A stretch of DNA of 64,000 nucleotides from a virus (IMGVR_UViG_3300015177_000008:32001-96000); one strand, 5' to 3'; positions 42,019-48,892 are shown, numbered from the stretch's first letter. Program-made: numbers and translations. Notes: generated by a model from the sequence alone, not told the origin.

Positions 42019-42120
42019 GTATGCTGTCAGCGGTAATTGATAGTCTGTCAGCGGTTCACCGTATGCTGCCAACTGTTTTTGGTATTCTGTCAGCGGCAAA
42101 TCAAGTATGCTGTCAGCGGT
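42019..42120 (+). repeat. Upstream iteron array (5 copies of GTATGCTGTCAGCGGT, 22-bp spacing)
   Basis: Copies at 42019, 42041, 42061, 42083, 42105 immediately upstream of repA. Confidence 0.75.
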
Positions 42121-42140
42121 TGAATGACAAAGGTGTCCAC

Positions 42141-43235
42141 ATGTCCACAAAAAATAAAAAAGGTAAAAATAACAAAGAAGTAGAAGATAATCTCGACAAC
42201 TTTGAAGAAGGTTCCCTTGAATTGTACACAGGGGAACTTGTCCCTAATAGCAACAATACAGTCCAACCAATTGCGTTGATGCGGCTGGGATTGTTCGTGC
42301 CCACGCTCAAGGGGACAAAATACAGCAAGCGTAACAAGCCAAATGAGATCGATGCTTCAAAGGAGCTTGTTCAGCTCGAAGTAGCCCGTTCTGAAGGCTA
42401 TTCCGATATCAAGATAACCGGTCCTCGTCTCGACATGGATCATGATTTCAAAACGTGGGTGGGCGTTGTGCGTTCGCTGGCAGAATACGGCGAACCTAAC
42501 GGTCGTGTCGAGTTAAGCATCACGAAATTTGCGAAGTTTTGTGGCTATCCATCGTCACAGATCCGCAAAACACTCCGCGACCGGCTTACAAACAGTCTTT
42601 TGAAGATCATGCGTACAACTCTGTCTTTCCAGAGAACATATGAAGAAAAGAACGTCGACGGCTCTAACAAGATCTCGCTTCTGATGGTGCACCTCATCAA
42701 TAGCGTGGACTACAACGAGCAGAAAGATACGGTGGTGTTCTATGCAGAACCGAAGCTGGCCGAACTATATCGCTTTGACCATAAGGTTCTTTTGCAGTTA
42801 AAGGTTATCAATAAGCTACCACGCAAAGAAACAGCACAGGCTCTGTACACCTTCATCGAAAGTCTTCCAACCAAGCCTGCGCCGGTGTCGCTTGCTCGAT
42901 TGCGTGCGCGACTCAATTTGAGTAGCAGGAATGTCAGCTCGCAGAATCAGACTATACGCAACGGCTTAAAAGCTCTCCAAGATTTGGGCTATCTCGAATA
43001 CAGCGAGATTAAGCGAGGGCGGTCGATCTATATCCAGATTCACAGCCGTAATCCAAAACTTAAAGTCGCACCGCCAAAACCTGAAGACATCGAACCCAAA
43101 AAAACAGATGAGAAAGCCGGGGAAATTGATGCTAAACAGAACATTATCAACAAGATAACTGAGCTTTCGCAGAATTTGACGCCTGAAAATATCAAGATGA
43201 TTGAGATCCTTTCCAATAGTCTCAAACTGCTTTGA
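42141..43235 (+). CDS. repA: Iteron-type plasmid replication initiator (RepA-like), 364 aa
   Basis: ORF flanked on both sides by arrays of the same iteron; start at ATG 42141 with SD aaaggtg; basic Lys-rich N- and C-termini. Confidence 0.8.
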   Translation: MSTKNKKGKNNKEVEDNLDNFEEGSLELYTGELVPNSNNTVQPIALMRLGLFVPTLKGTKYSKRNKPNEIDASKELVQLEVARSEGYSDIKITGPRLDMDHDFKTWVGVVRSLAEYGEPNGRVELSITKFAKFCGYPSSQIRKTLRDRLTNSLLKIMRTTLSFQRTYEEKNVDGSNKISLLMVHLINSVDYNEQKDTVVFYAEPKLAELYRFDHKVLLQLKVINKLPRKETAQALYTFIESLPTKPAPVSLARLRARLNLSSRNVSSQNQTIRNGLKALQDLGYLEYSEIKRGRSIYIQIHSRNPKLKVAPPKPEDIEPKKTDEKAGEIDAKQNIINKITELSQNLTPENIKMIEILSNSLKLL

Positions 43236-43766
43236 TATGCTGTCAGCGGTGAAATGTATGCTATCAGCGGCTATTTTTCTGAAAAGTATGCTGTGAACGG
43301 TTAAAGATATGCTACCAGCGGTATAGTGAGATGAACGTATGCTGTGAGCGGTAAATCATCTATCACCACTCAATGCTCTGTCATACCTCCCCAGTGGTTA
43401 CTAACCTCGAAGAGTGCATTCCATATAGGTTTGCGCTCACTAACATTCTATTGCTATTGCGCTGATTGCTTGTAGTGAAAGGCATTTATTGCCTGCTGCT
43501 CCCTGATAGAACGTATGCTGTCAGCGGTGTTTTATTGAGGAATTTTTGTTTGGATATGCTATCAGCGGTAATTAATGGTATATGTCAGACCTTCGTATGC
43601 TGCCAGCGGTAATTTTGTTCTGGTTATACCCATACCGGTACACATTATTCATGCAATGTCTTAAGTATGCTGTCAGCGGTAAAAAATCGAGTAAAGTATG
43701 CTGTGAGCGGTGAGATAGACTCTCGATATGCTATCAGCGGTAGTTGATTGTGTATGCTGTCAGCGG
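43234..43766 (+). repeat. Downstream iteron array (about 12 copies in two groups), incA-like
   Basis: Copies at 43234, 43256, 43286, 43306, 43336, 43512, 43553, 43594, 43664, 43694, 43724, 43749; first overlaps the repA stop. Confidence 0.8.
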
Positions 43767-43814
43767 TGACGACTATGAAATATGACTGCGGAACGTGCCG
43801 CAGTCAGTTTGCAT

Positions 43815-44027
43815 TTAGTGTATTTTCTTTAACAGACCCCAAAGTGTTCCGGCTTTTGTAGTCAGTTTTCCTGTTTCTGGATCGTACATACGCCATTCAC
43901 GCCGCTGGTGGACGATATACCCATCTTCACGTTCCAGACGCTCAAGAATGCCAGGTTGCTTGAAACCCTTAGCACGCCAGTAGCCGCTTGTTTTCTCGAT
44001 TTCCAGACCTGCCAGTGTTAATGCCAT
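43815..44027 (-). CDS. Hypothetical protein (70 aa)
   Basis: ATG overlaps stop of the upstream gene (TAATG). Confidence 0.45.
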   Translation of the reverse strand: MALTLAGLEIEKTSGYWRAKGFKQPGILERLEREDGYIVHQRREWRMYDPETGKLTTKAGTLWGLLKKIH

Positions 44028-44362
44028 TATTCAACCTCCTTGCAGTCATCGAAAAGGTAGCTTTGCTGAGAAGCGTGAACGCCATAGAAGCCCTTGTATT
44101 TGTTGTATACGAAGTGGTCTTCTCCGACGCCGGTTAATTTGCCATTACGGTTTGTGAGATATGGGGATGACAACACTCGATCGTCACGCACAACATAGAA
44201 CTGGTCGCCGCTGTCTACGACCATCGCTCCATATGGTGCTTTTATGACGTCGGTAAGAGCGCCATTCTTAACGTCGGCTACAGACATTTCACACTGATAA
44301 ACAGTGGTGTCGGCCACAACGATCGAAGAAAGGAACAACAGCGCGAATGGGATGGCCTTCAT
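44027..44362 (-). CDS. Secreted protein (signal peptide), function unknown
   Basis: MKAIPFALLFLSSIVVA signal-like N-terminus. Confidence 0.5.
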   Translation of the reverse strand: MKAIPFALLFLSSIVVADTTVYQCEMSVADVKNGALTDVIKAPYGAMVVDSGDQFYVVRDDRVLSSPYLTNRNGKLTGVGEDHFVYNKYKGFYGVHASQQSYLFDDCKEVE

Positions 44363-44538
44363 GCTGCCACCTCTTTGATTACATCAAATGCTGAATTAAA
44401 TACGAGCACGATAGCCAAAGCGTTTATGACTACGTCGTTCACCGGGGAAAAGACTTTACGAATGACACCGGTGAAAATGCAGTCGATGACAAAAGCTATT
44501 GAAACGATGAGTAACAAGTATTCAATAAAAATCTTCAT
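44359..44538 (-). CDS. Small membrane protein (59 aa), hypothetical
   Basis: Not in ORF track; stop overlaps next ATG (ATGA); two hydrophobic segments. Confidence 0.35.
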   Translation of the reverse strand: MKIFIEYLLLIVSIAFVIDCIFTGVIRKVFSPVNDVVINALAIVLVFNSAFDVIKEVAA

Positions 44539-44577
44539 GATAGGTAGATACTAACTTATATAAATTTTACTGTAAAC

Positions 44578-44853
44578 TCACTCAAAAGTGCTGATGCTTA
44601 AAATACGCTCAAGATGTGCGGCATCTTCATCACTGATTTGTTGAGTCTCTTCTACGTACCAACAGTTGCCGTTATGCCAACAAACACCATCATCATCAAC
44701 CATCACTGAATCAGCGTCATGACCTGTATATTCAACGAGAATACGCTGGATCAGCGCGTCAGTTTCTTCGTCGTTAAGGCCATCGGCTTTGACCATAAAA
44801 ACCGGAAACACGTCATAGACAGTGCTGGTAACGATTCGAACTAAAACTCTCAT
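44578..44853 (-). CDS. Hypothetical acidic protein (91 aa)
   Basis: ggaaaaacacATG start context. Confidence 0.45.
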   Translation of the reverse strand: MRVLVRIVTSTVYDVFPVFMVKADGLNDEETDALIQRILVEYTGHDADSVMVDDDGVCWHNGNCWYVEETQQISDEDAAHLERILSISTFE

Positions 44854-44908
44854 GTGTTTTTCCTTTTGTGGTTAGTGTTTACTTATTTTGTTAGTTATGA
44901 ATAGGCGA

Positions 44909-45334
44909 TCAATCTTCTTGTTTAGGGAAAAACTGTTCAATAACTCTGTCAACGGCTGTGTCTATATGGAGTAGATGCCACACAACCATATCTTTGCTTC
45001 CCATGCCTTGTGTGAATATCACGTCATACTTACGCCATGCGCAGTGGAACCAATATGCTGAGTCATCAATTGGTAAATCCTCTCCCGCCTCTTTGAAGTA
45101 TTTCAGCAGCATTGCCTGCTCTGCCGTTGGCGTTGGGCCTATTTCCTGAGCGTACATACGGATGAATCGCTGCCAGTCTGTCTCGTCGGGAGTTGGATCT
45201 GGTGGATTCATTTCGGCGATAGCTTTTCGCAGCTGATGCGCCCAATCAGGTTCAGGAAAGCCTTTTGCTACTTCATCATCAATAACATCCAGAGCCACGT
45301 TTGCGGCATCGTAGAGTTTCTTAATAGCTGTCAT
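44909..45334 (-). CDS. Hypothetical protein (141 aa)
   Basis: Motif aaacaagttgttttcttaa at 45351-45369. Confidence 0.5.
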   Translation of the reverse strand: MTAIKKLYDAANVALDVIDDEVAKGFPEPDWAHQLRKAIAEMNPPDPTPDETDWQRFIRMYAQEIGPTPTAEQAMLLKYFKEAGEDLPIDDSAYWFHCAWRKYDVIFTQGMGSKDMVVWHLLHIDTAVDRVIEQFFPKQED

Positions 45335-45383
45335 GTTTTCTTAACCCTTTAAACAAGTTGTTTTCTTAATAGGATAATTGCGA

Positions 45384-45409
45384 TAAAAAAGGCGTCCAAC
45401 TGGACGCCT
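45384..45409 (-). terminator. Rho-independent terminator (minus strand)
   Basis: On the minus strand aggcgtccagttggacgcct followed by TTTTTT; downstream of the 45426-46256 gene. Confidence 0.55.
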
Positions 45410-45425
45410 GAACTTTTAAGGGGAG

Positions 45426-46256
45426 TTATTTCACTGTAATGAAAGGAGTGTTAGCCCCTTGAGTCATGTACTGCGGTAACTGGCCATTCCATTTATTGAT
45501 GGCTTCCAGCTCCATAACGTTCGGGTTTTGACGCAGAGCTTCACCGCGCAGACGAATGGCGTCTGCTTCTGCTTGCGCACGAGCACGGATAGCATCAGCT
45601 TCACCATTAGCCTGTTCACGCAGCATATTCGCCTCAGCTTTACGTTGTTCAACTTCCTGCTGACGTTGCAGAGTACGCTGGTTAGCCGTTACTTTGGCGT
45701 TAATAGATTCAATGACGGTTTTTGGGTAATCAGGCTTTCCAACCCATGACAAGCTCAGTACCTCAATACCAACCGGAGACATCTCTTTCTGAATATCTTT
45801 CAGTGCGTTGTCCAGCAATTGTGCCTTACCACCGTCGATAAATGAGTCAGTGGTCATACGGCTGGCCAAACGGTTTAGAGAGTCGGCAATTTTCTGACGC
45901 AGATCTGATTCGGTGATATCGTCTACGCCTTTGCGATAGGTCTGGAACACCGTCGTTACCTTGTCACGATTAACCAGATACGCAACGCCAATTTTGTGAC
46001 CAATAGCAGTACCGTCACTCATCTGGAATGTGAACGGCTCGTCGTAGGTCTTCATTTGTTTGAAGGTCGGGAATACGTAAAGTTCGGTGTTAAGACCTGT
46101 CCATTGGCGACCAACGCCAACCACTTCACCAATCCCTTTGTCTTCACCTAATTTGTTTACTTTGATGCCAACGTATCCAGACTCCACGCGATCGCAGCCA
46201 GTAAGACCCATTGTGCAAATAGCCGCCAGAGCAACTGCAAGTAAACCTTTCTTCAT
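45426..46256 (-). CDS. SPFH/band-7 (prohibitin-like) domain lipoprotein
   Basis: Lipobox-like LTGC at N-terminus; SPFH-like core; C-terminal Ala/Glu/Arg-rich coiled coil. Confidence 0.65.
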   Translation of the reverse strand: MKKGLLAVALAAICTMGLTGCDRVESGYVGIKVNKLGEDKGIGEVVGVGRQWTGLNTELYVFPTFKQMKTYDEPFTFQMSDGTAIGHKIGVAYLVNRDKVTTVFQTYRKGVDDITESDLRQKIADSLNRLASRMTTDSFIDGGKAQLLDNALKDIQKEMSPVGIEVLSLSWVGKPDYPKTVIESINAKVTANQRTLQRQQEVEQRKAEANMLREQANGEADAIRARAQAEADAIRLRGEALRQNPNVMELEAINKWNGQLPQYMTQGANTPFITVK

Positions 46257-46259
46257 TAC

Positions 46260-46460
46260 TTATTTCCCCTTTGCTTTGATTAATGAGTTGATAAACTTAC
46301 GACCAGCAATAAGACCGATTACAGGAGCACCAAAACCAACGATAACTCCAAACATGACGGCTAAATCACTCTTGGTAGAAATCAGCGACGGAACCAGTAA
46401 TCCGTAGATGAGAGCCACTGAAAGGCCTGTGGCTACTGCCAATAGATAGATTTTGATCAT
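46260..46460 (-). CDS. Small membrane protein (66 aa), possible partner of the SPFH protein
   Basis: Two hydrophobic helices; 3 nt upstream of the SPFH gene start. Confidence 0.45.
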   Translation of the reverse strand: MIKIYLLAVATGLSVALIYGLLVPSLISTKSDLAVMFGVIVGFGAPVIGLIAGRKFINSLIKAKGK

Positions 46461-46491
46461 GTGTTTTCCTATGTGGTTGTTATGTGAAAAT

Positions 46492-46509
46492 GATAAGTAA
46501 GTACTTATA
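46492..46509. promoter_or_regulatory. Family-2 palindrome ATAAGTAAGTACTTAT
   Basis: Perfect 7-bp arms ATAAGTA/TACTTAT about 35 nt upstream of gene 46260-46460. Confidence 0.45.
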
Positions 46510-46522
46510 TATTTTCAAGAAA

Positions 46523-46547
46523 TAAAAAAGGCGTCCTGTGGACGCCT
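46523..46547 (-). terminator. Rho-independent terminator after recA (minus strand)
   Basis: On the minus strand aaggcgtccacaggacgcct followed by TTTTTT. Confidence 0.55.
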
Positions 46548-46552
46548 TGTGT

Positions 46553-48892
46553 TTACTCTTCTACTGACTCGGTGGGATTGTCTTTTGATCTCCGGTCGTC
46601 GATTGCCTGTAAAGCCGCAATGATTTCAGCTAGTGGCTTCTCCCGATACATCTCGACGATCTGTGATTTGGTGTATTTCTTGTCACCAATTTCTACTCGA
46701 CCGCTGGCGTTCTTTGGCAGGTATCCTTCTTCCAGCATGTACTCGACGAGCGACTCGATAACGTCGAGGCCACGAGTAGGATCGAAGTAGAATTTCCAGG
46801 TGCATTTGCCATACGGTGGTGCAACTTTGTTTTTGATGCACTCTGCGCCTACGTCCTGACCGATCTTCTCTTTCCCATCCTTCATCACCGATGCACCGAG
46901 ACGGATGCGCACAGAAGCGTAAAACTTCGGTGAATCGCCGCCTGGAGACGTAGTAGGGTCGCCAAACATTACACCGATTTTTGTGCGAACCTGATTCAAG
47001 AAGATGATGCAGGCGTTGTATTTGCGTGCCCACAAAGCCAGAGTGGGGAAGTTCGCACTCGTCGCACGAGCCAGCGCCGTATTGTCGTTCATGTTTAGCT
47101 GATCTTTGTCTTTGGCAGTGCCTTCAGCCATCTTTTCGAACTTCTCGGCTTTGGAGTTCGGAACCATAGACGCAAGTGAGTCAGCCACGATACAGATAGG
47201 TGCTGATTCAGGAATAAGCTCTTCATCACGTACCAATTTAAGAATTGTGCCGATCAACTCTACAGAGTCTTCGAAGGTATCAGGCTGCTTGTATACCCAC
47301 TGACCGTCATCCTCATCTGCATTCAAACCATTGGCTACAGCCAGGCCAACGTCAAAACTGTTTTCATGATCGAGGAATACCGCCAGACCATCTTGTTTTT
47401 GAGCGGAGATCATCGCTGCTGTTGCAAGGAATGTGTTGTGGCTGATAATCCCGTTAGACCAGAAAGAGTGTGTTTCCGGCATCGCTACGTCGAACGTTGG
47501 TGCTTCACCTTCCTCAATAGCCACGACTTCGTCGTAGAACAAGTTAGAGCCAATTACCGCTGCCAGTTGTGCAAACAGATGCTCGTTAAAACGATTCTTT
47601 CTGCCAATGAAGGAGACATAGATTTCTCGCAGTTTGTCTATTCCGACACGATCGCCGCGGCCAATAACGTGGTCTACCAGAGCGTAGTCTTCACGGGTGG
47701 TCTTGGTGAGCGACTCGTAGAGTGATTTCACTAAGCCGCTGATGTGCGGAACATAGCCTGAGTAAGTGCGGTCAAAACCAATGTCCCGTTTGGTTGCCAC
47801 TGATAAACGTGCCGGAGATTCGAAACCAATCGTTGACAGAAAAAGGTCGTAATTAGAGCCACTGAATGACAGCCGGTAATATGTATTTTCATAACCCGCG
47901 ACGTGTTTTTCAGAGATAGTTGACGTAATCCCCAGATTCAGGAGCATGAGGCGAATTTGCTGTAGCAGCAGCCCACTCGCGCTCACAACCTCAATGCAGC
48001 GACCATCATTGACGTGGCATTCCAGCTCAAAGTAGCCGCGAAGGAATGCAATTTGAGCCTCGCTATTGGCGCGACGCACACTCAACGGAACCTGCTTGCC
48101 AGCAGCTTTCTCATACTCCAGACCATATTCTTTAAAAAGCAGCGAACGCACCTCTTTGCTAAACAGCACATGGTCTTCCGAGCCGTTATGTTTTCTCGTA
48201 ACTGGCATCTTGTCTGATACCAGCGAAATGAGGCGGTAGTACTCATCCTTGATGAAAGGATCTGTGTTAGAAAAATTCACTGAATTTTCAGAGGCCACGT
48301 ATCCGTCAGCAATTAAATAGCCCATCAGTTTTGCGATATTGGCATCCAGGTGCTGATCGCCGAATTGATGTGTGCCAACCATTGAAGGAATCGTGTCGCC
48401 TACACTGATTTTTTCAGCATGTCGCCAGACGACATTACCTAAGTCGTCAACCACACGGATTGGGTGACGGAACGTAGCCTCGATATAACCGCCTGATGCC
48501 AGCTTAATACGCTTGAATTTGCGACGGTTGTTCCATGTCAGGTGTGAGGTCTTCTCTATCACGCCATTTTCATTGATGAGTCCAACGTTATGCTCTACAT
48601 CGCGAGTAGTGCATGTCGCTTTGTACCCTTCAATCTCAAACAACTCTTTCACTGTTACCATTCCACGCTCCGTCAGCAGCATGGTGTCTGCGGTAACACA
48701 TTTCCCCGCACTTGGAGGACCGAATACTTCGACGATACGACCACATGGGAAGCCGCCATCGTAACGACCAGAAATAGCTTTGTTTAACGGTGGAAAGCCT
48801 GTATCAATCCAATGAGTTACTTTCTGAATTTCGTCGTTGCTACCGATTTTCTTTTTCAGAGCAAGTGCCAGTGCGGATTTTCCTTTTGCCAT
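46553..48892 (-). CDS. recA: RecA-family recombinase interrupted by an intein (779-aa precursor, about 357-aa mature protein)
   Basis: N-extein ends GPPSAGK; C-extein has IFLNQVRTKIGVMFGDPTTSPGG and KFYASVRIRLG, closely RecA-like; SD aggagcc. Confidence 0.9.
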   Translation of the reverse strand: MAKGKSALALALKKKIGSNDEIQKVTHWIDTGFPPLNKAISGRYDGGFPCGRIVEVFGPPSAGKCVTADTMLLTERGMVTVKELFEIEGYKATCTTRDVEHNVGLINENGVIEKTSHLTWNNRRKFKRIKLASGGYIEATFRHPIRVVDDLGNVVWRHAEKISVGDTIPSMVGTHQFGDQHLDANIAKLMGYLIADGYVASENSVNFSNTDPFIKDEYYRLISLVSDKMPVTRKHNGSEDHVLFSKEVRSLLFKEYGLEYEKAAGKQVPLSVRRANSEAQIAFLRGYFELECHVNDGRCIEVVSASGLLLQQIRLMLLNLGITSTISEKHVAGYENTYYRLSFSGSNYDLFLSTIGFESPARLSVATKRDIGFDRTYSGYVPHISGLVKSLYESLTKTTREDYALVDHVIGRGDRVGIDKLREIYVSFIGRKNRFNEHLFAQLAAVIGSNLFYDEVVAIEEGEAPTFDVAMPETHSFWSNGIISHNTFLATAAMISAQKQDGLAVFLDHENSFDVGLAVANGLNADEDDGQWVYKQPDTFEDSVELIGTILKLVRDEELIPESAPICIVADSLASMVPNSKAEKFEKMAEGTAKDKDQLNMNDNTALARATSANFPTLALWARKYNACIIFLNQVRTKIGVMFGDPTTSPGGDSPKFYASVRIRLGASVMKDGKEKIGQDVGAECIKNKVAPPYGKCTWKFYFDPTRGLDVIESLVEYMLEEGYLPKNASGRVEIGDKKYTKSQIVEMYREKPLAEIIAALQAIDDRRSKDNPTESVEE
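47435..48700 (-). mobile_element. Intein (422 aa) with LAGLIDADG-type homing endonuclease domain, inserted in the RecA P-loop
   Basis: Starts with Cys (CVTADTMLL), ends IISHN followed by Thr+1; LAGLIDADG-like blocks LMGYLIADGYV and LRGYFELECHVNDG. Confidence 0.85.

What the first reader, a model, noticed from the sequence alone, without database searches (positions are those of the whole stretch)
43815..46460. Envelope-targeted cluster: secreted proteins, SPFH/band-7 lipoprotein and small membrane partner
Immediately after the replicon and before recA lie co-oriented genes for a secreted 111-aa protein, a 59-aa membrane protein with overlapping stop and start, an SPFH-domain lipoprotein and a 66-aa two-helix membrane protein. 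SPFH proteins with small membrane partners occur in membrane-remodelling and some phage-exclusion contexts, so this may be an element-encoded envelope or superinfection-exclusion module.
Basis: inference. Interest (0 to 1): 0.35.

Follow-up and report, generated by a model that had tools for sequence, protein, structure and literature searches.

The report
Phage-plasmid SPFH membrane cassette plus neighbours
The genes are real and several do target the cell envelope, but they are already-annotated, function-unknown accessory genes of a common E. coli SSU5-like phage-plasmid and form two separate units rather than one exclusion module.

Summary

The window is an SSU5-like phage-plasmid, 97-98% identical to Escherichia phages CMS-2020a, PhiR41_1 and Cyrano.

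The interval is not one module. It has three parts:
- **SPFH cassette (46548-45390).** This is a promoter, a 66-aa gene, the SPFH lipoprotein gene and a terminator. It sits behind the recA terminator, whose hairpin is duplicated at both ends. A Klebsiella relative lacks it. The same small-protein-plus-SPFH pair recurs in P1-like, P2-like, lambdoid, N4-like, rV5-like and Burkholderia phages.
- **Two cytoplasmic genes** (DUF7238 and a 91-aa protein).
- **A coupled trio.** It encodes a 59-aa two-helix membrane protein, a 111-aa secreted beta-barrel and a 70-aa P1 Cra-like protein, with its own promoter-like site. The 111-aa gene is specific to SSU5-like elements.

The SPFH protein has a lipobox with Asp at +2. 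Its model has the full HflK/C-prohibitin cage architecture. The partner is not NfeD-like, and no protein matches a known defence system.

Published RNA-seq of Cyrano shows both units silent in LB and induced in macrophages, while recA stays silent.

Superinfection exclusion is untested. My best reading of the SPFH pair is a periplasm-facing cage on the inner membrane with unknown payoff. Interest is low to moderate.

The parts
46528..46548 (-). Intrinsic terminator directly after the recA stop (AAGGCGTCC-ACA-GGACGCCTT plus a T-run). It is the upstream boundary of the SPFH cassette.
   Evidence: Terminator scan. The same hairpin is the single terminator at the empty site in Klebsiella phage ST13-OXA48phi12.3.
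46490..46518 (-). Sigma-70-like promoter of the cassette (TTGAAA, 17 nt, TATCAT).
   Evidence: Best-scoring site of the scan, 10 of 12 matches. It is conserved in Cyrano and SSU5. In Cyrano RNA-seq there is a roughly 12-fold step up from recA to the 66-aa gene at 6 h in macrophages.
46260..46460 (-). 66-aa two-helix inner-membrane partner of the SPFH protein. Layout: basic N-terminus, helix 1, an invariant Pro in the motif LLVPSLISxKSD, helix 2, basic tail.
   Evidence: phrog_1130, E=2e-25. Hydropathy. A homologous small ORF lies upstream of SPFH in 193 of 207 assessable loci. Alignment A4. pN is below pS against the SSU5 and Cyrano orthologues.
45426..46256 (-). SPFH/Band-7 lipoprotein, 276 aa. 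Lipobox LTGC with Asp at +2, an SPFH domain, then a 65-residue helix (179-243).
   Evidence: Pfam Band_7 8.7e-30. phrog_200 2e-107. AlphaFold2 model with pLDDT 76. Foldseek top hits are HflK/C 7vhq (E 1.3e-13), prohibitin, erlin, stomatin, flotillin and QmcA.
45390..45409 (-). Intrinsic terminator after SPFH (AGGCGTCC-AGTT-GGACGCCT plus a T-run). It is a second copy of the recA terminator hairpin and the downstream boundary of the cassette.
   Evidence: In Cyrano RNA-seq there is a roughly 10-fold drop from SPFH to the DUF7238 gene at 6 h in macrophages.
44909..45334 (-). DUF7238 protein, 141 aa, acidic, with no export signal. It is not an envelope protein.
   Evidence: Pfam PF23885 5e-38. Homologues occur in T4-like and rV5-like virulent phages. 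It is absent from the Klebsiella relative. It stays near background in Cyrano RNA-seq.
44578..44853 (-). 91-aa acidic protein of unknown function, with no clear export signal.
   Evidence: phrog_2209 2.5e-56. Composition. Only remnants remain in the Klebsiella relative.
44548..44576 (-). Promoter-like site for the trio (TTTACA, 17 nt, TAGTAT). It ends 10 nt before the 59-aa ATG, and no Shine-Dalgarno sequence is visible.
   Evidence: In Cyrano RNA-seq there is a roughly 13-fold step up from the 91-aa gene to the 59-aa gene.
44359..44538 (-). 59-aa membrane protein with two hydrophobic helices. First gene of the coupled trio.
   Evidence: phrog_2535 1.4e-31. Hydropathy. ATGA overlap with the next gene. 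Conserved in the Klebsiella relative.
44027..44362 (-). 111-aa secreted protein. The mature part is an all-beta barrel of about 94 aa. Cys24 is invariant and Cys107 nearly invariant.
43815..44027 (-). 70-aa basic cytoplasmic protein related to P1 Cra (Cre-associated, function unknown). Last gene of the trio.
   Evidence: phrog_804 6.5e-34. 43.5% identity to P1/P7 Cra, and found only in P1-like and SSU5-like phage-plasmids. 94% identical to the SSU5 orthologue, dN/dS 0.03.
43783..43806 (-). Terminator-like hairpin closing the trio, just before the iterons of the replication origin.
   Evidence: 9-bp stem with a weak T tail. Iterons at 43234-43772.

Best explanation
The interval is the accessory region between recA and the origin of an E. 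coli SSU5-like phage-plasmid. It holds two independent envelope-directed transcription units with two cytoplasmic genes between them.

**Unit 1 (46548-45390).** This is a self-contained cassette of promoter, 66-aa gene, SPFH gene and terminator. It sits just behind the recA terminator, whose hairpin is found at both cassette ends.
- SPFH protein (inferred from sequence): it is exported and lipid-modified at Cys21. It is retained in the inner membrane by Asp at +2, so its SPFH domain and long coiled-coil helix face the periplasm.
- Assembly (inferred from the model and from solved relatives): it has the complete architecture of the cage-forming SPFH proteins (HflK/C, prohibitin, erlin). It most likely oligomerises into a ring or dome on the outer face of the inner membrane.
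- Partner (inferred from conserved gene pairing): the 66-aa protein has both ends in the cytoplasm and a short conserved periplasmic loop around an invariant proline. It is the cage's dedicated membrane partner, either as anchor or as enclosed client.
- Role (not shown): together they would create a phage-made inner-membrane microdomain. The pair is a mobile two-gene module used by many temperate and virulent phages. Its benefit is therefore most likely to phage development or to the infected cell's envelope integrity. Candidates include resistance to secondary phage DNA entry or to membrane damage. A lysogen-specific trait is less likely.

**Unit 2 (44576-43783).** This is a translationally coupled trio with its own promoter-like site: a 59-aa two-helix membrane protein, a secreted disulfide-capable beta-barrel and a P1 Cra-like protein. 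It is conserved next to the origin in all SSU5-like elements examined. Its function is unknown. The barrel fold is shared with small periplasmic binding or inhibitor proteins.
For: **Identity of the element.** 97-98% identical to phages CMS-2020a, PhiR41_1 and Cyrano, and 76% to SSU5, with the same gene order.

**Cassette boundaries.**
- Strong terminators at 46548-46528 and 45409-45390, and the best promoter match at 46518-46490.
- Klebsiella phage ST13-OXA48phi12.3 has recA, one terminator and then the downstream sequence with no cassette. Both window terminators align to that single one.

**Separate evolutionary histories.**
- SPFH is found in 415 phage records.
- The 111-aa gene is found only in 12 SSU5-like records.
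- DUF7238 is found in 416 mostly virulent phage records.
- Cra-like genes are found only in P1-like and SSU5-like elements.

**Pair conservation.**
- A small two-helix ORF with the proline motif lies upstream of SPFH in 193 of 207 assessable loci from three clades. In most of the distinct variants listed it overlaps the SPFH start by 4 nt.
- It is present in P88, phiP27 (unannotated there), KpCHEMY26, PVP-SE1, phi1026b, a P1-like phage and Klebsiella phage P12620-1.
- Alignment A4.

**Protein features.**

**Expression** (Cyrano RNA-seq, PMC9928086 Table S1; values are log2(FPKM+5)).
- The 66-aa and SPFH genes are at 2.3-4.3 in stationary LB and 7.3-7.7 at 6 h in macrophages.
- The trio is at 2.3-3.8 in LB, 6.0-7.4 in the MB1 samples and 8.3-9.0 at 6 h in macrophages.
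- recA stays at 3.1-4.2 and DUF7238 at 2.3-4.2.

**Purifying selection** on all seven genes.
Against: - No experiment on this family was found in the searchable literature. Localisation, oligomerisation and partner binding are all inferred.
- The +2 Asp rule is established for E. coli lipoproteins in general (my background knowledge) and was not tested for this protein.
- The AlphaFold2 model is a monomer with moderate confidence (pLDDT 76, pTM 0.57). It was built from a shallow alignment in which every sequence is at least 71% identical to the query.
- The duplicated terminator is equally compatible with loss of the cassette in the Klebsiella lineage as with gain in the E. coli and Salmonella lineage.
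- The RNA-seq is from a 97%-identical relative, not this element.
- Induction of the SPFH pair at 6 h tracks the major capsid gene. The signal could come from a minority of induced cells rather than from lysogens.
- Promoter-like sites are no more frequent in this region than in shuffled sequence (8 found, 9.3 expected).
- Some distant SPFH-bearing phages (phiEa104, Pseudomonas Ab22) lack a recognisable partner at the adjacent position.
Confidence: 0.55

Rival explanations
1. One reading: the whole interval is one co-functional, element-encoded envelope or superinfection-exclusion module.
For: All seven genes are co-oriented and closely spaced, and four of them are envelope-targeted. Both envelope units rise in macrophages in Cyrano. 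PVP-SE1 also places a small secreted protein and a two-helix protein right after its SPFH gene.
Against: - Terminators bracket the SPFH pair.
- The pair is absent, while the trio is present, in the Klebsiella relative.
- The genes have unrelated phyletic ranges.
- The two units show different kinetics in RNA-seq: the trio is already up in the MB1 samples, the SPFH pair only at 6 h.
- Two intervening genes are cytoplasmic and stay silent.
Confidence: 0.08
2. The 66-aa plus SPFH pair is a superinfection-exclusion system. It would be made early in infection or on induction and block genome entry of secondary phages at the inner membrane, as T4 Imm/Sp or HK97 gp15 do.
For: - Small inner-membrane proteins and lipoproteins are the usual form of exclusion proteins (background knowledge).
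- The pair sits in early or accessory regions of both virulent and temperate phages.
- It behaves as a mobile cassette.
- The partner gene lies in a locally divergent patch, while SPFH is nearly identical between close relatives.
Against: - No homology to any known exclusion or defence protein.
- No phenotype has been reported.
- In the Cyrano lysogen the pair is near background in LB, so a resident prophage would not be protected under standard conditions.
- The wide host range of carriers (Escherichia to Caulobacter and crAss-like phages) argues against a receptor-specific mechanism.
Confidence: 0.2
3. The phage SPFH protein acts on the host FtsH-HflK/C system by mimicking or competing with HflK/C on the periplasmic face. 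This would change degradation of membrane or regulatory proteins, for example lysis-lysogeny factors or phage membrane proteins.
For: HflK and HflC are the best sequence and structure matches (NCBIfam E 2e-7; PDB 7vhq E 0.007; Foldseek E 1.3e-13). The protein would sit on the same side of the same membrane. HflK/C-FtsH controls lambda CII (background knowledge).
Against: - Similarity to prohibitin, erlin and stomatin is equally strong, and scores are far below the HflK/C family cut-offs.
- The protein has no transmembrane helix and there is only one SPFH gene, not a K/C pair.
- The module is abundant in virulent phages that make no lysogeny decision.
Confidence: 0.12
4. The units are lysogenic-conversion genes that help the bacterial host under host-associated stress, as virulence or fitness factors inside macrophages.
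For: Both units are induced in LF82 inside macrophages, where Cyrano virions were not detected above background. A prophage-encoded HflK/C-like protein of Pasteurella multocida was reported to affect virulence, capsule and serum sensitivity (PMC9872710). Homology of that protein to this family was not checked.
Against: - The SPFH pair is widespread in strictly virulent phages.
- It was not among the 13 Cyrano genes classed as morons in LB.
- Many other Cyrano genes also rise in macrophages, including capsid and tail genes.
- No mutant data exist.
Confidence: 0.1

Closest known systems
HflK/HflC of E. coli (periplasm-facing SPFH cage around FtsH; PDB 7vhq, 7wi3, 9cz2)
   Same: It is the best sequence and structure match. 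It shares the SPFH domain followed by a long wall-forming helix. It would face the same side (periplasm) of the same membrane.
   Different: - The anchor is an N-terminal lipid rather than a transmembrane helix.
- There is a single gene rather than a K/C heterodimer.
- It scores 30 and 19 bits against the family cut-offs of 134 and 159.
- The partner is a 66-aa two-helix protein, with no evidence for FtsH.
SPFH-NfeD operons (QmcA-YbbJ, YqiK-YqiJ; PDB 8z5g)
   Same: A two-gene operon of a small membrane protein followed by an SPFH protein, often translationally coupled. QmcA is a structural match.
   Different: The partner has no NfeD or OB-fold domain and is only 66 aa. QmcA faces the cytoplasm, whereas this lipoprotein must face the periplasm.
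Phage families phrog_200 (SPFH 'lipoprotein') and phrog_1130 ('membrane protein'), e.g. Cyrano CYRAN_57/56, SSU5_062/061, P88 gp12/gp11, phiP27 L05, PVP-SE1 gp117/gp115
   Same: Direct membership (E 2e-107 and 2e-25). Same gene order and coupling.
   Different: Nothing substantive. This copy differs from Cyrano mainly in a roughly 400-bp divergent patch over the 66-aa gene.
Morons of temperate phages (promoter-gene-terminator insertions)
   Same: Own promoter-like site, flanking terminators, presence or absence between otherwise collinear relatives, and transcription uncoupled from neighbours.
   Different: It is near background in the lysogen in LB. The same genes are ordinary early-region genes in virulent phages and in the P88 early operon.
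Small periplasmic eight-to-ten-stranded barrels (PliC/MliC/PhiA lysozyme inhibitors, YceI-like lipid binders) and the Cap15 barrel
   Different: 3-14% identity and no Pfam hit. The resemblance is at fold level only, so no function can be transferred.

Membership tests
SPFH / Band 7 superfamily (Pfam PF01145) | Band_7 domain above the Pfam gathering score | tested here: met
   104.5 bits against 23.6, E 8.7e-30, covering residues 24-209.
SPFH / Band 7 superfamily (Pfam PF01145) | N-terminal membrane anchor, and a long coiled-coil helix after the SPFH domain that builds the cage wall | tested here: met
   Lipobox LTGC with Cys21. Model helix 179-243. Full-length Foldseek matches to HflK/C, PHB1/2, erlin1/2, stomatin and flotillin.
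SPFH / Band 7 superfamily (Pfam PF01145) | Homo- or hetero-oligomeric ring or cage on a membrane | not testable with these tools
   Only monomer prediction was available. This needs native gels, cryo-EM or a multimer prediction.
HflK/HflC (FtsH modulators) | Score above the NCBIfam equivalog cut-offs (TIGR01932, TIGR01933) | tested here: not met
   30.2 bits against 134.4, and 18.7 bits against 159.4.
HflK/HflC (FtsH modulators) | Paired K and C genes, each with an N-terminal transmembrane helix | tested here: not met
   There is one SPFH gene with a lipoprotein signal and no transmembrane helix beyond the signal peptide.
HflK/HflC (FtsH modulators) | Physical association with FtsH | not testable with these tools
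   Requires co-purification.
SPFH-NfeD operon | Partner protein carries an NfeD or OB-fold domain (Pfam NfeD family) | tested here: not met
   The 66-aa protein has no Pfam hit at E up to 0.1. It consists only of two helices and a basic tail.
Phage SPFH lipoprotein plus two-helix partner module (phrog_200 and phrog_1130) | Both proteins match the PHROG profiles and are adjacent, with the partner first | tested here: met
   E 2e-107 and 2e-25. The gap is 3 nt. A partner ORF is found upstream of SPFH in 193 of 207 assessable loci.
Known anti-phage defence systems (PADLOC-DB v2) | Any of the seven proteins matches a defence-system model | tested here: not met
   No hits at E up to 0.1.
Superinfection-exclusion proteins (T4 Imm/Sp, HK97 gp15, P22 SieA, Cor/Llp) | Sequence-family membership | tested here: not met
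   No Pfam, NCBIfam or PHROG hit to such families for any of the seven proteins.
Superinfection-exclusion proteins (T4 Imm/Sp, HK97 gp15, P22 SieA, Cor/Llp) | Expression blocks infection by a second phage | not testable with these tools
   Needs plating and DNA-entry assays.
Moron | Autonomous promoter and terminator, and insertion between genes that are adjacent in a related element | tested here: met
   Step changes in the Cyrano RNA-seq at both cassette ends.
Moron | Expressed from the repressed prophage | tested here: inconclusive
   In Cyrano the pair is near background in LB and is not on the moron list. It is induced in macrophages, but in parallel with the capsid gene.
PliC/MliC periplasmic lysozyme inhibitors (for the 111-aa protein) | Family profile match or conserved inhibitory loops | tested here: inconclusive

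The most novel reading that the evidence does not exclude
The lipid-anchored, periplasm-facing SPFH protein and its two-helix partner form a previously uncharacterised, widely distributed phage inner-membrane cage system. It is carried by phage-plasmids, P2-like and lambdoid prophages, and N4-, rV5- and LUZ24-type virulent phages. Its job would be to shield the infected cell's inner membrane, for example by blocking genome entry of competing phages or by neutralising membrane-disrupting abortive-infection effectors.
Probability: 0.25. Interest if true: 0.65.

Novelty: already known. Interest (0 to 1): 0.3.

Why it matters
As a sequence feature it is ordinary.
- The SPFH-cassette query gave a match in 373 of 5,426 complete E. 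coli genomes.
- In 195 of those genomes at least 80% of the cassette is covered. The full-coverage hits listed are all on plasmids of about 106-114 kb.
- RefSeq annotates the two genes as an SPFH domain-containing protein and a hypothetical or membrane protein.

What is worth keeping is the general point. A two-gene module for a periplasmic SPFH lipoprotein and a tiny two-helix protein is shared by hundreds of temperate and virulent phages of Proteobacteria. I found no experimentally assigned function for it in the literature available here. SPFH cages are now known to enclose and regulate membrane clients. A phage-made cage on the periplasmic face would be a new way for viruses to remodel the host envelope. 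The cassette described here, with a defined promoter, terminators and a natural empty-site control, is a convenient unit to clone and test.

Tried and rejected
- **NfeD-like partner:** rejected. No Pfam hit, and the protein is only 66 aa.
- **Known defence system:** rejected. PADLOC gave no hits.
- **Non-coding RNA in the interval:** Rfam gave only one hit, far below threshold (24 bits against a gathering score of 229).
- **Direct tblastn with the 66-aa protein:** found only close relatives. Its conservation had to be shown by scanning the sequence upstream of SPFH genes.
- **My first locus script:** missed the 77% identity class because of a start-motif filter. I redid it with tblastn coordinates.
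- **Sequence search of the 111-aa and DUF7238 proteins against PDB:** nothing significant.
- **Fold search against afdb50:** the library was unavailable. BFVD was used instead.
- **Regulator boxes:** I looked by eye for PhoP- or CpxR-like boxes in the two promoters. Only weak half-site resemblance was seen, so no claim is made.
- **Shared 9-mer TATATAAGT in both promoters:** it is enriched (3 found, 0.3 expected), but the longer shared pattern was not found elsewhere, so no regulon is claimed.
- **Literature searches** for SPFH with prophage, superinfection exclusion, holin, defence or phage resistance gave no functional study of this family.
- **Pasteurella PM0222** is only a lead. Its sequence could not be compared.


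Full report
**What the window is.** The region 43.7-46.6 kb is 98.4% identical to Escherichia phage CMS-2020a, 97% to PhiR41_1 and Cyrano, and 76% to Salmonella phage SSU5. Gene order matches the annotated records of Cyrano and SSU5. The window is therefore an SSU5-like phage-plasmid of E. coli.

**Gene order.** All genes of the finding are on the minus strand. In reading order they are as follows:
- recA, interrupted by a LAGLIDADG intein (48892-46553)
- a terminator (46548-46528)
- a promoter-like site (46518-46490)
- the 66-aa gene (46460-46260)
- the SPFH gene (46256-45426)
- a terminator (45409-45390)
- DUF7238 (45334-44909)
- a 91-aa gene (44853-44578)
- a promoter-like site (44576-44548)
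- the 59-aa gene (44538-44359)
- the 111-aa gene (44362-44027)
- a 70-aa P1 Cra-like gene (44027-43815)
- a hairpin (43806-43783)
- at least 11 iterons (43234-43772)
- repA on the other strand (42021-43235)

**Observation check.**
- The SPFH call is solid: Band_7, E 8.7e-30.
- The lipobox is LTGC with Cys21 followed by Asp22. Cys21 and Asp22 are each present in at least 90% of 21 homologues.
- The 66-aa and 59-aa proteins each have two strongly hydrophobic segments.
- The 111-aa protein has a cleavable-looking signal (VVA|D). Cys24 is invariant and Cys107 nearly invariant.
- The start/stop overlaps are ATGA and TAATG.
- All seven ORFs belong to PHROG families.
- All seven show far fewer non-synonymous than synonymous differences against SSU5 (pN 0.04-0.26, pS 0.63-0.89). 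They are real genes.
At least two of these, DUF7238 and the 91-aa protein, have no export signal.

**The interval is not one module.** Four lines of evidence split it.
1. *Signals.* The two strongest terminator-like hairpins bracket the 66-aa/SPFH pair exactly. The best promoter match lies between the first hairpin and the 66-aa gene.
2. *A natural empty site.* In the SSU5-like Klebsiella phage ST13-OXA48phi12.3, recA is followed by one terminator. After two tiny ORFs come the 59-aa, 111-aa and 70-aa genes. There is no SPFH pair, no DUF7238 and no 91-aa gene. Both window terminators align to that single Klebsiella terminator. The sequence after the second window terminator continues the Klebsiella sequence. 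The roughly 1.14-kb cassette of promoter, two genes and terminator is therefore a discrete insertion or deletion unit flanked by a duplicated hairpin. I cannot tell gain from loss.
3. *Phyletic ranges differ.* SPFH occurs in 415 phage records. The 111-aa gene occurs only in 12 SSU5-like records and on contigs of about 100-112 kb in Enterobacterales. DUF7238 occurs in 416 records, mostly T4-like and rV5-like virulent phages. Cra-like genes occur only in P1-like and SSU5-like phage-plasmids.
4. *Published RNA-seq of Cyrano in E. coli LF82* (PMC9928086, Table S1; values are log2(FPKM+5)). The paper states that BLB is stationary LB and that the macrophage profile is 6 h post-infection. I infer the B1, B6 and MB1 labels.
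   - recA stays at 3.1-4.2 in all ten samples.
   - The 66-aa gene goes from the floor (2.32) in LB to 7.6-7.7 at 6 h in macrophages.
   - SPFH goes from 3.0-4.3 to 7.3-7.4.
   - DUF7238 stays at 2.3-4.2.
   - The 91-aa gene stays at or below 5.7.
   - The 59-aa, 111-aa and 70-aa genes go from 2.3-3.8 to 8.3-9.0, and are already at 6.0-7.4 in MB1.

The step changes fall exactly where the promoter-like sites and terminators are predicted. The two units also have different kinetics. None of these genes is among the 13 Cyrano genes that the authors call morons in LB.

**The SPFH pair.**

*The SPFH protein.* Asp at +2 is the classical inner-membrane retention signal for E. coli lipoproteins (background knowledge). 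The mature protein should therefore hang from the outer leaflet of the inner membrane into the periplasm.

The AlphaFold2 model (pLDDT 76) has an SPFH domain followed by a single 65-residue helix (179-243) and a short C-terminal helix. Foldseek aligns the full length to HflK/HflC (E 1.3e-13), prohibitin 1/2, erlin 1/2, stomatin, flotillin and QmcA. All of these were solved as closed rings or cages. By sequence the nearest solved chain is HflK, only weakly (E 0.007). NCBIfam HflC and HflK scores are far below their cut-offs.

*The partner.* It evolves fast: 59% identity to SSU5 against 94% for SPFH. Direct searches found only close relatives. Scanning upstream of SPFH genes in fetched loci found a small two-helix ORF with the same layout in 193 of 207 assessable loci from three SPFH clades. 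In most of the distinct variants listed it overlaps the SPFH start by 4 nt.

Individually checked cases:
- P88 gp11.
- An unannotated 62-aa ORF in phiP27.
- The Stx-type prophage class.
- The N4-like virulent phage KpCHEMY26.
- rV5-like PVP-SE1, where it lies one gene removed.
- Burkholderia phi1026b.
- A P1-like phage, where the pair sits between tRNA genes next to the ban helicase.
- Klebsiella phage P12620-1.

The alignment shows one invariant proline at the end of helix 1, followed by a conserved L-I-S-x-K-D/S loop. Distant carriers such as phiEa104 and Pseudomonas Ab22 have no recognisable partner at the adjacent position, and phiCbK has a larger multi-helix protein there.

The partner is not NfeD-like, and nothing matches PADLOC.

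**The trio.**
- The 111-aa protein is confidently modelled as an all-beta barrel (pLDDT 87, about 92-96 across the mature part).
- In BFVD it resembles small phage lipoproteins and secreted proteins (TM about 0.7).
- In one Salmonella homologue, probably from the pHCM2 plasmid, a deletion fuses the first helix of the 59-aa protein to the core of the barrel (P0168). This fits both proteins acting at the same membrane face.
- The 70-aa protein is 43.5% identical to P1 Cra, whose function is unknown. It is the most conserved gene of the interval (dN/dS 0.03).
- The trio keeps its place next to the origin in every SSU5-like element I inspected.

**How it most likely works.**
- *Shown:* gene structure, domain content, cassette boundaries, conserved pairing, and independent transcription in a close relative.
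- *Inferred:* the SPFH protein is lipid-anchored in the inner membrane facing the periplasm. It oligomerises into a cage like its solved relatives and works with the 66-aa protein as anchor or client.
- *Not shown:* what this achieves.

The module sits in early or accessory regions of many virulent phages as well as prophages. I therefore favour a role in phage development or envelope integrity of the infected cell over a lysogen-specific trait.

Superinfection exclusion is a reasonable specific version, and I give it about 0.2. Interference with FtsH-HflK/C gets about 0.12. A host-fitness role in macrophages gets about 0.1.

One caveat applies to the RNA-seq. SPFH induction at 6 h parallels the major capsid gene (2.9 to 7.4-7.8). 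It may therefore reflect a few induced cells rather than lysogens.

**Comparison with the known, and novelty.** The proteins are members of the SPFH superfamily and of phrog_200 and phrog_1130. They are not HflK/C, not an SPFH-NfeD pair, and not a catalogued defence system.

The SPFH-cassette query matched 373 of 5,426 complete E. coli genomes. In 195 of them at least 80% of the cassette is covered. The full-coverage hits listed are all on plasmids of about 106-114 kb, annotated as an SPFH domain-containing protein plus a hypothetical or membrane protein. As a feature it is already known and ordinary.

Its function is open. A 2026 paper still calls the presence of SPFH in phage genomes unexplained, and my literature searches found no functional study.

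**Verdict.** Interest is low to moderate at 0.3. The residual value is that a widespread, uncharacterised phage membrane module is here packaged as a cleanly bounded, testable cassette.

Noticed in passing
window 46553-48892 (-): The element's recA is split by an intein carrying a LAGLIDADG homing endonuclease (779 aa in total). The SSU5 recA gene (1077 nt) is too short to contain it, whereas the Cyrano gene is the same length as here.
   Followed up: partly
window 46260-46640: Against Cyrano the region 43.8-49.1 kb is above 93% identical everywhere except a roughly 400-bp patch (69-88%). The patch covers the recA 3' end, the terminator, the cassette promoter and the 66-aa gene. The partner is 73% identical while the adjacent SPFH is 99.6% identical, which suggests a recombination patch.
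   Followed up: partly
L049, L077 and related prophage loci, about 30 nt upstream of the SPFH start; protein P0021: A poly-A tract (six or seven A) at the 3' end of the partner gene changes its C-terminus. P0021 (347 aa, 8 member sequences) is an in-frame fusion of the partner and SPFH. This is either a homopolymer sequencing artefact or a real slippage-prone site.
   Followed up: no
protein P0168 (Salmonella, seen on up to 1000 contigs, longest 108 kb; probably pHCM2); corresponds to window 44538-44027: A 101-aa fusion of the N-terminal helix of the 59-aa protein to the conserved core of the 111-aa barrel, with the first strands of the barrel deleted.
   Followed up: partly
window 46503-46511, 44554-44562 and 17505-17513 (all minus strand): The 9-mer TATATAAGT occurs in both cassette promoters and once more upstream of a large adhesin gene (3 copies against 0.3 expected). 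It could be a shared regulatory site or just AT-rich promoter sequence.
   Followed up: partly
window 44536-44576 (-): The 59-aa gene has no visible Shine-Dalgarno sequence. The predicted -10 element (TAGTAT) ends 10 nt before its ATG, so the trio mRNA may be leaderless or nearly so.
   Followed up: no
window 12811-18085 (-): A 1416-aa ORF whose repetitive sequence looks, by eye, like an invasin/intimin-type adhesin. It is preceded by a 162-aa ORF that looks like a MarR-type regulator. No domain search was run on either. It appears to be accessory cargo unrelated to this finding.
   Followed up: no
L214 2285-3328 (Escherichia phage vB_EcoM-813R1, P1-like): The same partner-plus-SPFH pair sits between tRNA-Thr and tRNA-Met, next to the replicative helicase gene of a P1-like phage-plasmid. 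This is another independent insertion context.
   Followed up: partly
L086 2398-2847 (Salmonella phage PVP-SE1 gp118, gp119): Directly after its SPFH gene, this virulent phage encodes a small Cys-containing protein annotated as a one-helix membrane protein (the helix could be a signal peptide) and a protein annotated with two membrane helices. This echoes the 111-aa/59-aa theme, although no sequence similarity was tested.
   Followed up: no
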